Positions 13,041 to 15,256 of a DNA stretch of 64,000 nt are shown here, piece by piece. A model generated the notes under the pieces. The model did not search any database and was not told the origin of the DNA. It saw nothing but the letters and a program-made list of their open reading frames with translations. The DNA is taken from NCBI RefSeq assembly GCF_009914755.1, contig NC_060925.1, one strand, 5' to 3'. This DNA comes from the human T2T-CHM13v2.0 reference genome, Homo sapiens. The position numbers and the translations under genes were made by a program. Position 1 is the stretch's first letter. Every line of letters begins with the position of its first letter.

Positions 13041-14503
13041 AATAAATTGTTGATAGAATCGGGGGTCGCCGCTGTTTTAGAGAATTTAGGAAATCCCCAG
13101 AGAAAAGACAGCGCTTTGCTCTGGAGGTCACAGTCAGGAGGCTGGGGGTGGAGGTGGGCAGAGAGAAAAAGAAGTGAGAAAAGAGAGCTGTGGAGGGACA
13201 GGCAAATGGGAGAAACAGGGAAAAAGGAAAGAAAGAAGAGAGAAAAGTGGGGAAGGGGAAAGGGTCTTTTCTCCAGAGAAAGCAGGGCAGGAAGGAGAGA
13301 AGAGCGTGGGCTGAGGTGAGTGGAGGAAGGAGGGGCAGCGGGGAGAAGCTGGGGCAGCTGGAGAGCTAAGGTGCCAGAGGAGAGGGCACAGCGGGCACTT
13401 GGCAAGCCCACTCCCCACCCTCCACCTGGGTTGTGCCCCTCCTCCTCCCACAGGAAGATGAGCAGAGCTGGCCTGAGATCATCTGTCTTCATTACACCGT
13501 CCCCACCAGCCCTGTCACTTCTTGCCAGAAAACTCATCAATATTCCCCTGAGACTTGCCAGCCCCAGCCCCTTTCCTCCCCTGCCCCCACCCCAGCCCCC
13601 CACCATCCTCCAAGGCCATGTGCCTGGACCATCTGATGAGCACACCCGAGTCCTCCGCTCCAGGGTCCCTGCTCTTCTCTCTCTCCTCGGCAGATCCAAC
13701 CAGGGCCCTCCCTCCTGGCCGCAGGGTCCGTGCTAGGGAGGAAATGGACGCATTCCCTGGAGCTGGGGAGAAGCCTTCCTGGAAGCCAGCCGGGCTGAGA
13801 GGAGCTATCTCAGTGTGTCAGCCCCATGGGGAAGACATCCTTGACCCCTGTGTTTGAAATTTCAAAGCACCCCCCAGCACTTGGTATCCCTTGCATGTAC
13901 TTCATTTTTCTCTAGTCTAAACCCTTGACCGTTGTCTAGTATGGGCTCTGTATATATAACCTATAGTGCATATTTACGTTGTTTATTCATCTCCTCCTTG
14001 TAGAATACTCTGGGAGGGCAGGGCTTATGTCAGATGCGTTCACTGCTGCATACCCACGCCTAGGACTGTGCTGGGAACATAAGTGGAATGAATGAGTGTT
14101 GCAGTGTTGGGTTTGGACGCCCAGCAGCAAAGTGTTGGCACCTTCTGGGTGCCTAACAGCCTCACTAAAGATTGGGATAGGGAAGTTTCAGTACTGAAAT
14201 CCAATGGCTTCAATACCAAGAAACAAAAGCAGAAGCCAGATTTAAAAATTCCTCTGATTCTCACCCATCCAGTGGCCTCTGTTACCTTTAGAATAAAACT
14301 CAAACTGTTTCCCAACCTGGCCCAACTTGATGAGGCCCCTGGCTGCATTTTTCATCTCATTTCCTACTAAGCTCTGCCTCATTCACTCTGCAGAAGCCAC
14401 TGTGGACCTCTTGCAGCTGCTCCAACCCTTGTCCCAACCTACCAAGGTTATTCCCCACTCAGTGTTTTAGCACCACAGCCCAGACTTTAATACAGGCAGG
14501 TGA

Positions 14504-14576
14504 GCCCGGAGAGCTCAGTGGGTAGAGCATCAGACTTTTAATCTGAGGGTCCAGGGTTCAAGTCCTCGTTCGGGCA
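14504..14576 (+). tRNA. tRNA-Lys(TTT), degenerate copy (probably tRNA-Lys-TTT-8-1; likely a retrocopy with low activity)
   Basis: 73-nt cloverleaf GCCCGGAGAGCTCAGTGGGTAGAGCATCAGACTTTTAATCTGAGGGTCCAGGGTTCAAGTCCTCGTTCGGGCA. Anticodon TTT at 14537-14539; B box GGTTCAAGTCC. Differs from canonical tRNA-Lys3 at U8G, C17G, C63U, U64C and G73A. Confidence 0.95.
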
Positions 14577-14585
14577 TCCTATTTT
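14577..14585 (+). terminator. Pol III trailer and minimal T4 terminator after the tRNA
   Basis: TCCTATTTT lies immediately 3' of the discriminator base; there is no encoded CCA. Confidence 0.55.
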
Positions 14586-14881
14586 GGCTGGGCACGGTGG
14601 CTCATTCCTGTAATCCCAGCACTTTGGGAGGCTGAGACGGGAGGATCACAAGGTCAGGAGTTCGAGACCAGCCTGGTAAGTATGGTGCAAACCTGTCTCT
14701 ACTAAAAAGTGCAAAAATTAGCCGGGCATGGTGGCGTGTGCCTGTAATCCCAGCTACTTGGGAGGCTGAGGCAGGAGAATTGCTGGCAGGGTGAAGTTGC
14801 AGTGAGCCAACATCGTGCCACTGCACTCCAGCCTGGGTGACAGAGTGAGACTCTTGTCTCAAAAAAAAAAAAAAAAAAAAA
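14586..14881 (+). mobile_element. AluS (Sg-like) fused to the tRNA-Lys
   Basis: GGCTGGGCACGGTGGCTCA start, GATCACAAGGTCAGGAGTTCGAGACC (2-nt deletion type), small deletion in the right arm, A21+ tail. Confidence 0.93.
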
Positions 14882-15256
14882 AATACAGGCAGGCAACTGG
14901 CTTCAGACAGCCTGTCCCTCATTCTATTTAGGTCTCAGCTAGAATCTCACCTCCTCAGAGATGCCTGCCCTGACCACCTAAGCTAACACAGCATCCCCCA
15001 TCCCTCTCCAACCCCTGACCTGCTTTTTCCCTTCTGGTGCTACCTGACTGTATAGTACATATGTTTGTTTATGGCTCTTTCATTAGAGTGTAAGCTCCAT
15101 GAGGGCAGGAACTTTGGTTCACCCCAGGTAGTAGGTGCTGTTGGTACTCTGCTCACCTCCTTTGCTCTAACTACAGAGCAGTGCTTAACCATCCACCAGC
15201 ATCTGCCTTTCTTTGCCAGATGGCTTTCTCCTGCGGTACCTGCTTTGCTTGCCTTG

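What the first reader, a model, noticed from the sequence alone, without database searches (positions are those of the whole stretch)
14489..14893. Pre-tRNA-Lys(TTT)-Alu chimera retrotransposed as one unit (single TSD around both)
Seen: AATACAGGCAGG occurs at 14489-14500 and again at 14882-14893, right after the Alu poly-A. Between the two copies lie a 3-nt leader TGA, the 73-nt tRNA-Lys, a trailer TCCTATTTT (no CCA), and an Alu starting at its first nucleotide (14586). The left copy follows TTT/AA, an L1-endonuclease-like nick site, and the block interrupts an L2 remnant. No duplication flanks the Alu alone. Established: L1 target-primed reverse transcription makes 7-20 bp TSDs, and chimeric retrocopies of Pol III RNAs (U6-L1, U6-Alu) exist. 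Inference: this tRNA locus is a retrocopy of an unprocessed pre-tRNA joined to Alu RNA. Possible routes: (a) Pol III read-through of a weak T4 terminator into a downstream Alu at a source locus, giving a tRNA-promoter-driven Alu or nascent composite SINE; (b) RNA ligation of the oligo-U end to Alu RNA; (c) reverse-transcriptase template switching.
Basis: partly seen in the sequence, partly recalled or inferred. Interest (0 to 1): 0.85.

Follow-up and report, generated by a model that had tools for sequence, protein, structure and literature searches.

The report
Pre-tRNA-Lys joined to Alu, one insertion
An annotated human lysine tRNA gene is really an old retrocopy of an unprocessed tRNA precursor that was pasted into the genome fused to an Alu element in one event, and a handful of similar tRNA-Alu fusions exist elsewhere in the genome.

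Summary
A perfect 12-bp duplication, AATACAGGCAGG, follows a TTT/AA site. It encloses a 3-nt leader, tRNA-Lys(TTT), the trailer TCCTATTTT, a full-length old Alu starting at its first base, and a poly-A tail. No duplication flanks the Alu alone.

The tRNA has 5 private changes out of 73 against six identical canonical copies. It scores 61.7 Rfam bits against 74.1. The Alu is about 14% from consensus. So TRK-TTT8-1 looks like a neutrally decaying retrocopy.

No parent with this leader and trailer was found (0 of 19 other Lys-TTT copies). No source or sibling junction exists in this genome.

Limited pattern scans found six more loci where a pre-tRNA abuts a full-length sense Alu: four Asp, one Gln, one Leu. 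For 3 of 3 with an identifiable closest gene, that gene carries the same leader and trailer but no Alu downstream.

I therefore favour a reverse-transcriptase jump from the Alu RNA 5' end onto the oligo-U 3' end of a nascent pre-tRNA. Read-through or ligation are less likely.

This is a new member of the known L1 chimeric-retrocopy kind. I found no description of it in the searchable literature.

The parts
14486..14490 (+). Target nick site TTT/AA (L1 endonuclease-like, a TT/AAAA variant)
   Evidence: sequence...GACTTT|AATACAGG. That this matches the consensus is established knowledge (TT/AAAA, as quoted in PMC5322556 passages).
14489..14500 (+). Left target-site duplication AATACAGGCAGG
14501..14503 (+). 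5' leader TGA of the pre-tRNA (could be longer if its start overlaps the duplication by microhomology)
   Evidence: Only 1 of 19 other Lys-TTT copies (L012) has TGA here.
14504..14576 (+). tRNA-Lys(TTT) body, annotated TRK-TTT8-1. It has 5 of 73 private differences from the canonical sequence (U8G, C17G, T-stem CCCTG to CCTCG, discriminator G to A).
14577..14585 (+). 3' trailer TCCTATTTT ending in a T4 Pol III terminator, with no CCA
   Evidence: At best 6 of 9 positions match in any other Lys-TTT locus.
14586..14860 (+). Full-length dimeric Alu from its first base, 14.2% (8.4% outside CpG) from the majority consensus of 30 window Alus, with a short right-arm deletion
14861..14883 (+). Pure poly-A tail (23 A; the last two are shared with the right duplication copy)
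14882..14893 (+). Right target-site duplication AATACAGGCAGG

Best explanation
The block 14489-14893 is one L1-mediated (target-primed reverse transcription) insertion of a two-part cDNA. ORF2p nicked at TTT/AA, primed on the poly-A of an Alu RNA and copied it to its very 5' end. It then jumped to the oligo-U 3' end of a nascent, unprocessed pre-tRNA-Lys(UUU), a Pol III primary transcript with leader and trailer still attached. It copied that RNA to its 5' end before the cDNA was joined to the target, which left a 12-bp duplication around both parts. Shown: the single-insertion anatomy and the pre-tRNA state of the 5' part. Inferred: the order of events and the template jump. After insertion, probably tens of millions of years ago in an anthropoid ancestor judging by Alu divergence, the tRNA copy decayed at about the neutral rate. 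The annotated gene TRK-TTT8-1 is therefore best read as a retro-pseudogene that still folds as a tRNA.
For: Single event: a perfect 12-bp duplication abuts the poly-A on the right and sits 3 nt before the tRNA on the left, with 0 of 500 shuffles matching it. No duplication flanks the Alu alone.

Pre-tRNA state: there is a leader, a trailer ending in T4 and no CCA.

Not a source-locus product found in this genome: a 152-nt junction query matched at full length only to itself. An 85-nt leader-tRNA-trailer query gave 20 of 20 candidates scored, and only the window itself covers 1-85 at 100%.

Sister loci: pattern scans and family scans found six more pre-tRNAs directly abutting base 1 of a sense Alu. 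They lie at C5:142.93M (Asp), C6:146.38M (Gln-TTG), C9:87.06M (Asp), C7:134.82M (Asp), C3:187.46M (Asp) and C9:132.55M (Leu-CAG). Enclosing duplications are 12 of 13 (chr5, inside a target Alu), 10 of 12 (chr6) and 10 of 12 (chr7).

Closest genes: for chr5 it is the chr1q23 Asp array, 81 of 89 identical including leader GTCG and trailer. For chr6 it is C6:28.46M, 87 of 92 including the whole 18-nt trailer. For chr9:87M it is C12:124.93M, 82 of 90. In 3 of 3 the gene's T-run is followed by non-Alu DNA. The copy's T-run is no longer than the gene's (T3 against T5, T4 against T4, T3 against T5), as expected for a Pol III RNA 3' end.

Full-length Alus: in the family scans, which did not require an Alu start, the 3' partner is usually a complete Alu. 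It begins at Alu base 1 in the window, chr5, chr9, chr7 and chr3, at the first base of an Alu monomer in L020, and is truncated only in L014. This suits run-off at the template's 5' end followed by an end-to-end jump.

Decay: the tRNA has 5 of 73 private changes against six identical canonical copies. It scores 61.7 Rfam bits against 74.1. The Alu is 8.4% diverged outside CpG. From the Alu's rates I expect about 8 changes and observe 5 (my arithmetic), which is compatible with neutrality.
Against: No parent gene with leader TGA and trailer TCCTATTTT exists among the 19 other Lys-TTT-like copies. The pre-tRNA origin of the 12 flanking bases is therefore inferred, not demonstrated, for this locus.

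The template jump itself cannot be told from RNA ligation by sequence alone.

Pol III read-through of T4 does happen at Lys-TTT genes. L009, L018 and L022 are retrocopies that carry the downstream DNA of a gene like C6:28.8M past its T4, and L021 does the same for the C1:203.77M gene. Route (a) is therefore feasible in principle, and a source locus could have been lost since insertion.

The three pattern scans required an Alu 5' start, so the 'full-length Alu' observation is partly an ascertainment effect.

Two sister loci give no clean duplication: chr9:87M lies in an A-rich target, and chr3 shows none and has upstream similarity to the C12 gene. The 3' end of the Leu locus was not examined.

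No orthologous empty site could be inspected.
Confidence: 0.6

Rival explanations
1. Read-through, or 5' transduction. At a source locus an Alu lay directly after the weak T4 of a Lys-TTT gene. Pol III started at the tRNA promoter, read through T4 and the Alu, and the single composite RNA was retrotransposed.
For: T4 is the minimal terminator (established knowledge). Read-through retrocopies of Lys-TTT genes exist: L009, L018 and L022 share ggcttttagYacctRattctg with the DNA downstream of L013, and L021 shares the downstream DNA of the C1:203.77M gene. The structure of the copy would be identical under this route.
Against: No other locus in this genome has the junction. No Lys-TTT gene has this trailer. 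In 3 of 3 sister chimeras with an identifiable closest gene, that gene has no Alu downstream, and the copy stops inside the gene's T-run. By the TT/AAAA rule, L1 endonuclease targeting does not favour a sense Alu whose 5' end abuts a T-run (inference). There is no sign of progeny.
Confidence: 0.17
2. RNA ligation before reverse transcription. The 3' end of the pre-tRNA was ligated to the 5' end of an Alu RNA, as proposed for U6/LINE-1, and the ligated RNA was then retrotransposed.
For: The junction is precise, with no filler bases. Law and Burns list ligation or template switch as alternatives for sense chimeras (PMC13174262 passages). That ligation has been demonstrated for U6/L1 is my recall (Moldovan et al. 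2019, not read here).
Against: From recalled biochemistry, not tested here: the U6 route needs a 2',3'-cyclic phosphate and a 5'-OH acceptor. A nascent pre-tRNA ends in U-OH. A complete Alu RNA starting at base 1 should carry a 5' triphosphate. Ligation to cleaved RNA would predict 5'-truncated partners.
Confidence: 0.13
3. Two unrelated events. A resident tRNA-Lys gene (or a separate tRNA retrocopy) was later joined by an independent Alu insertion next to it, and the 12-bp repeat is coincidence.
For: Alus are dense here: 34 matches in the 64-kb window.
Against: An exact 12-mer abuts the poly-A on one side and lies 3 nt before the tRNA on the other. It occurs nowhere else in 64 kb, and 0 of 500 shuffles match it. 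No duplication flanks the Alu alone. The same architecture recurs at six other loci.
Confidence: 0.02

Closest known systems
Bipartite chimeric retrogenes made by the L1 machinery (U6/L1, U6/Alu, U3, 5S, 7SL and others; Buzdin group, Garcia-Perez 2007, Doucet 2015)
   Same: A complete small Pol III-type RNA forms the 5' part and is directly joined in the same orientation to a retroelement with a poly-A. One duplication surrounds both, at an L1 endonuclease-like site. The features are listed in PMC2104539 passages and PMC4476161 passages.
   Different: The 5' partner is an unprocessed pre-tRNA. tRNA is not among the partner classes listed in PMC2104539, which names mRNA, rRNA, snRNA, transposable elements and 7SL. 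The 3' partner is a complete Alu rather than a 5'-truncated L1. Doucet et al. call U6/Alu chimeras very rare and not reproduced in culture. Buzdin 2003 itself was not held, so I cannot exclude a tRNA case in its tables.
tRNA/LINE-1 chimeric insertions (Law and Burns 2026, PMC13174262)
   Same: tRNA sequence co-inserted with a retroelement inside one duplication. Reported there as a newly found chimera type, n = 21 (passages).
   Different: Those are mostly half-length tRNAs in antisense orientation joined to LINE-1 and explained by twin priming. Here a whole pre-tRNA with leader and trailer lies in sense orientation, joined to an Alu. That study screened only sequences 5' of LINE-1 (section 12 read in full). 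I did not open its supplementary tables.
Tailless tRNA retropseudogenes, including pre-tRNA copies (Schmitz 2004; Noll 2015, PMC5322556)
   Same: L1-dependent retrocopies of tRNAs and pre-tRNAs with duplications. They show that nuclear pre-tRNAs reach the L1 machinery (passages).
   Different: Those lack any A-tail, are usually 3'-truncated, and are primed directly on the tRNA. Here priming was on the Alu poly-A and the tRNA is complete. The word stem 'chimer' occurs 0 times in PMC5322556.
Composite tRNA/7SL SINEs of galago and tree shrew
   Same: A tRNA-derived 5' module is joined to a 7SL/Alu-derived 3' module (PMC3575423 passage).
   Different: Those are amplified families. The window's junction is single-copy in this genome, and T4 still separates the two modules.

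Membership tests
L1 ORF2p target-primed insertion | Target-site duplication of about 7-20 bp directly flanking the insert | tested here: met
   12 of 12 at 14489-14500 and 14882-14893.
L1 ORF2p target-primed insertion | 3' poly-A tail and a TT/AAAA-like nick site | tested here: met
   A23 at 14861-14883 and TTT/AATA at 14486-14492.
Bipartite chimeric retrogene (template-switch type) | The 5' part is a full-length copy of a cellular RNA, joined directly in the same orientation | tested here: met
   Leader, 73-nt tRNA and trailer to T4, then Alu base 1, with no filler.
Bipartite chimeric retrogene (template-switch type) | The 3' part is a 5'-truncated copy, truncated at a random site (feature ii-iii in PMC2104539) | tested here: not met
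   The Alu aligns from consensus position 1. A short template lets the enzyme reach the end, so this weakens formal membership, not the mechanism.
Bipartite chimeric retrogene (template-switch type) | The parent of the 5' part exists separately, without the 3' part | tested here: inconclusive
   No parent found for the window (0 of 19). Met for 3 of 3 sister loci.
Functional tRNA-Lys(UUU) gene | Cloverleaf and isodecoder sequence kept under selection | tested here: inconclusive
   It folds (61.7 bits, against 74.1 for canonical). It carries 5 private changes, including U8G and a T-stem A:C mismatch. The rate is compatible with that of the neutral Alu. Expression is not testable here.
Tailless tRNA retropseudogene | No A-tail, usually 3'-truncated, primed on the tRNA itself | tested here: not met
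   The tRNA is complete and the tail belongs to the Alu.
Composite tRNA/7SL SINE family | Amplified to many copies sharing the same junction | tested here: not met
   The junction is unique in the genome. The sister loci have different tRNAs, leaders and trailers.
Read-through / 5'-transduced Alu | A source locus with the tRNA gene directly followed by the Alu | tested here: not met
   None in this genome. Other primates are not testable here.

The most novel reading that the evidence does not exclude
Pre-tRNA::Alu chimeras are a recurrent, uncatalogued output of Alu retrotransposition. ORF2p, on reaching the Alu 5' end in the nucleus, jumps onto oligo-U-ended nascent Pol III transcripts. This can (i) seed new tRNA genes: the Lys-TTT copy at C11:122.59M sits inside such a chimera within an L1, yet is still intact at 73.9 bits while its Alu fragment is about 18% diverged. 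It can also (ii) create tRNA-promoter-driven Alus where the junction keeps only T2-T3, as in five of the six sister loci. That would be the founding step of composite tRNA/7SL SINEs such as those of galago and tree shrew.
Probability: 0.3. Interest if true: 0.7.

Novelty: new member of a known kind. Interest (0 to 1): 0.55.

Why it matters
It shows that an entry in the human tRNA gene set (TRK-TTT8-1) is a retrocopy of a precursor RNA rather than an ancestral gene. That matters for tRNA gene counts and for reading tRNA-seq or Pol III ChIP signal at this locus.

It adds complete pre-tRNAs as 5' partners, and Alu as the primed 3' partner, to the catalogue of L1-made chimeras. Seven loci were found by narrow scans, so a systematic screen should find more.

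The precise U-run-to-Alu-base-1 junctions and the Alu-free parent genes give a natural data set on where the reverse transcriptase jumps.

The architecture is the one needed to found composite tRNA/7SL SINEs, so these loci are snapshots of how such families may begin.

Tried and rejected
1. Parent search. I compared the leader and trailer with all 19 other Lys-TTT-like copies. None fits. L012 shares only the 3-nt leader, and the 'hits' of up to 6 of 9 are T-rich coincidences. In one search the upstream GCAGG-GA of the C6:28.8M gene aligned to the end of the duplication plus the leader. I rejected this as chance because its trailer differs.

2. Alu-only duplication. The 11-of-13 match at 14575-14587 against 14920-14932 lies 37 nt past the tail, so I rejected it.

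3. Empty-site paralog for the window. The upstream flank is unique. Downstream-flank paralogs start at query position 29 or later and do not span the duplication. Local BLAST of both flanks against all held DNA gave nothing below E = 0.07. Searches printed nothing.

4. Earlier findings store: not open.

5. Buzdin 2003 (PMC169886): not held.

6. Literature searches. 'Lys-TTT-8-1' returned 0 papers. 'tRNA-Alu' plus 'chimera' returned 0 papers. Other searches turned up no description of a pre-tRNA::Alu chimera in the passages I read.

7. Most pattern hits are not tRNAs. 10 of 12 and 16 of 20 have no ARAGORN tRNA at the hit. By eye, several are MIR-like.

8. The chr3 Asp locus gave no duplication. 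Its upstream resembles that of the C12 gene, so it may have a different history.

9. Alu subfamily naming was not attempted with a tool, because none holds Alu subfamily consensus sequences. 'AluS-like age' rests on divergence rank (22nd of 30) and on recall.
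Full report
**Observation**

- ...GACTTT, then AATACAGGCAGG (14489-14500)
- TGA (14501-14503)
- a 73-nt tRNA (14504-14576)
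- TCCTATTTT (14577-14585)
- an Alu beginning GGCTGGGCACGG at 14586
- an uninterrupted A-run (14861-14883)
- AATACAGGCAGG again (14882-14893)

ARAGORN calls tRNA-Lys(TTT) at 14504-14576. Rfam's tRNA model gives 61.7 bits, and both Alu arms hit Metazoa_SRP below threshold.

The 12-mer occurs only at these two places in the 64-kb window, even with one mismatch allowed. A local alignment of the 35 nt before the tRNA against the tail plus 35 nt returns exactly this 12-mer, and 0 of 500 shuffles reach its score.

The repeat finder lists no duplication that flanks the Alu alone. The nearest candidate is an 11-of-13 match between 14575-14587 and 14920-14932. It lies 37 nt beyond the tail, so it cannot be a target-site duplication.

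The downstream flank is an old dispersed repeat with 28 other matches at 75-94%. The upstream 201 nt is unique. I recognise the downstream flank as an L2 3' end from memory only.

**State of the tRNA copy**

The genome holding the window can be searched. An 85-nt query (leader, tRNA, trailer) returned 20 loci, all 20 scored. These hold 19 Lys-TTT-like copies besides the window's.

Six copies are identical to one another and define the canonical sequence. The window copy differs from it at 5 of 73 positions, and apart from an A discriminator also seen in L009 and L023 these are private to it:
- U8 to G
- C17 to G
- two changes that turn the T-stem strand CCCTG into CCTCG, giving an A:C mismatch
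- discriminator G to A

It scores 61.7 bits against 74.1 for the canonical gene.

The Alu is 14.2% diverged overall, and 8.4% outside CpG, from a majority consensus of 30 full-length Alus in the window. That ranks it 22nd of 30 by age. BLAST gives 85.3% identity from consensus position 1.

Scaling the Alu's CpG and non-CpG rates to the tRNA predicts about 8 changes. Five are seen (my arithmetic). The tRNA copy therefore shows no sign of purifying selection and is probably as old as the Alu.

A perfect 24 nt of duplication is not unlikely at that rate, at about 0.12 by my arithmetic.

**Parent and siblings**

None of the 19 other copies has the trailer. The best is 6 of 9 positions, in T-rich contexts. 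Only L012 (C11:59.51M) has the TGA leader, and its trailer is different (GTATCTTTTTTTT).

A 152-nt query across the duplication, tRNA and Alu junction matched at full length only to itself. So this genome holds no identifiable parent, no source locus with the same junction, and no sibling.

**Sister loci**

One search's second hit, together with three pattern scans and the family scans, uncovered the same architecture elsewhere. The patterns combined a B-box-like motif, a gap and an Alu 5' start.

- 12 hits, of which 2 are tRNAs by ARAGORN (the window and C5:142.93M).
- 20 hits, of which 4 are tRNAs (the window, C5, C6:146.38M, C9:87.06M).
- 13 hits, of which 6 are tRNA-type. These add C7:134.82M and C3:187.46M, first seen (Rfam 32.3 and 33.4 bits), and C9:132.55M (Leu-CAG).

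In every case a leader, tRNA and trailer ending in T2-T4 run directly into base 1 of a sense Alu.

| Locus | tRNA | Enclosing duplication |
|---|---|---|
| C5:142.93M | Asp | 12 of 13, splitting a pre-existing Alu; 1 of 500 shuffles |
| C6:146.38M | Gln-TTG | 10 of 12 |
| C7:134.82M | Asp | 10 of 12, after TTTT/AA |
| C9:87.06M | Asp | lies in an older Alu's A-tail, so uninformative |
| C3:187.46M | Asp | none found |
| C9:132.55M | Leu-CAG | 3' end not fetched |

Three of these have an identifiable closest gene.

| Chimera | Closest gene | Identity | Copy trailer | Gene trailer and what follows |
|---|---|---|---|---|
| C5 Asp | Asp genes of the chr1q23 7.4-kb array | 81 of 89, incl. leader GTCG | GCAGCAGTCCTTT | GCAGCCGTGCTTTTT, then GGGCCGCCGCC..., not an Alu |
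| C6 Gln | C6:28.46M | 87 of 92 | whole 18-nt trailer to T4 | same trailer, then ACAGTTCC... |
| C9:87M Asp | C12:124.93M | 82 of 90 | ends in T3 | ends in T5, then ACCATT... |

In 3 of 3 cases the copy ends inside the gene's T-run and the gene has no Alu behind it. That is what two separate RNAs joined together would give, not read-through.

Two further Lys-TTT loci carry Alu-derived 3' partners.
- L014 (C11:122.59M) has an intact tRNA (73.9 bits), the trailer ATGGCGTTTGTTTTT, a 5'-truncated Alu right-arm piece (later duplicated) and a poly-A. It sits inside an L1 3' end. A paralogous L1 on chr8 has the segment once, whereas L014 has it on both sides, about 16-17 nt with an exact 8-nt core.
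- L020 (C12:27.56M) has a decayed tRNA, TTCCCTCTTA, an Alu monomer and an 18-of-23 duplication.

**Mechanism**

The anatomy shows a single L1-type insertion whose 5' part is an unprocessed Pol III primary transcript.

I favour a template jump. The enzyme primed on the Alu tail, ran off the Alu 5' end and continued on the oligo-U 3' end of a pre-tRNA. The reasons are:
- The junctions are exact: U-run, then Alu base 1, with no filler.
- The copy's T-runs are no longer than the gene's.
- The closest genes lack Alus.
- Complete Alus predominate even in the family scans, which did not select for them.

From recalled biochemistry, a complete Alu RNA should have a 5' triphosphate and a nascent pre-tRNA a 3' OH. 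Both are poor substrates for the ligation route proposed for U6/L1. I did not test this.

Read-through remains possible for the window because its own parent is unknown. Read-through retrocopies of Lys-TTT genes do exist (L009, L018, L022 and L021).

My estimates are about 0.6 for a jump, 0.17 for read-through, 0.13 for ligation and 0.02 for coincidence.

**Comparison with what is known**

The Buzdin group's summary of L1-made chimeras lists mRNA, rRNA, snRNA, transposable elements and 7SL as partners, with 5'-truncated 3' parts (PMC2104539 passages). tRNA is not listed.

Doucet et al. describe U6/Alu chimeras as very rare and cite pre-tRNA retropseudogenes as evidence for nuclear recruitment (PMC4476161 passages).

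Law and Burns report tRNA/LINE-1 chimeras as new (n = 21). Most are antisense half-tRNAs attributed to twin priming. They screened only sequences 5' of LINE-1 (PMC13174262: passages, section 12). I did not open their supplementary tables.

Noll et al. on tailless retropseudogenes never use the word stem 'chimer'. Wagstaff et al. recovered 226 new Alu inserts, and the word tRNA occurs nowhere in the main text.

Searches for 'tRNA-Alu' with 'chimera' and for 'Lys-TTT-8-1' gave 0 papers. Buzdin 2003 was not available. My statement that this type is undescribed is therefore limited to these searches.

Composite tRNA/7SL SINEs exist in galago and tree shrew (PMC3575423 passage). The window's junction, by contrast, is single-copy.

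**Verdict**

It is a new member of a known kind (L1-mediated chimeric retrocopies) rather than a new mechanism.

Its value lies in three things: re-reading an annotated tRNA gene as a retrocopy, the small class of sister loci, and the link to the birth of composite SINEs.

Noticed in passing
L014 (G000:C11:122587625-122587697 and flanks; locus coordinates 1480-1830): An intact tRNA-Lys(TTT) (73.9 Rfam bits, equal to canonical) lies inside a chimeric retrocopy. The retrocopy has a trailer ending in T5, a 5'-truncated Alu right-arm piece (later tandemly duplicated) and a poly-A. It was inserted in an L1 3' end with a duplication of about 16-17 nt, shown by a chr8 L1 paralog that has the segment once. 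The Alu piece is about 18% diverged while the tRNA is intact. This suggests selection or gene conversion, so a working tRNA gene may have been born by retroposition.
   Followed up: partly
L009 (C16:79.30M), L018 (C17:61.66M), L022 (C3:15.21M) versus L013 (C6:28.83M); L021 (C19:44.06M) versus L005/L008 (C1:203.77M): Lys-TTT retrocopies carry 30-50 nt of the parent-type gene's downstream DNA beyond its T4 (shared ggcttttagYacctRattctg...). L018 and L022 end in an A-rich tract (tttgaaaaag...) that is also present downstream of L013. These appear to be read-through Pol III transcripts retrotransposed from a genomic A-rich stretch.
   Followed up: partly
L002/L020 (G000:C12:27562109-27562380): A decayed tRNA-Lys(TTT) (53.9 bits) is followed by TTCCCTCTTA and an Alu monomer of about 155 nt with an A-rich tail, inside an 18-of-23 duplication. 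This looks like a much older chimera of the same kind. Its 3-nt leader (TGC) and its trailer loosely resemble the window's.
   Followed up: partly
G000:C1:160577884-160733107: There are 23 tRNA-Asp(GTC) matches spaced about 7.4 kb apart on one strand: the chr1q23 tRNA array as assembled here. It is the closest source of the chr5 Asp::Alu chimera. Four of the seven chimeras found involve tRNA-Asp.
   Followed up: no
G000:C3:187463519-187463581 (L089, L094): An Asp::Alu junction with no detectable duplication. Its upstream roughly 25 nt shares GAAGGGCCTG, at a similar offset, with the upstream of the C12:124.93M Asp gene. This may mean a long leader or a DNA-level copy rather than a standard retrocopy.
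   Followed up: no
window 14719-14770 and 14546-14624: Sub-threshold Rfam hits to mir-1268 (52.1 bits against an 83-bit cut-off) and mir-619 (19.1 against 80). They lie on Alu sequence and are Alu-derived family resemblance, not evidence of microRNA genes.
   Followed up: no
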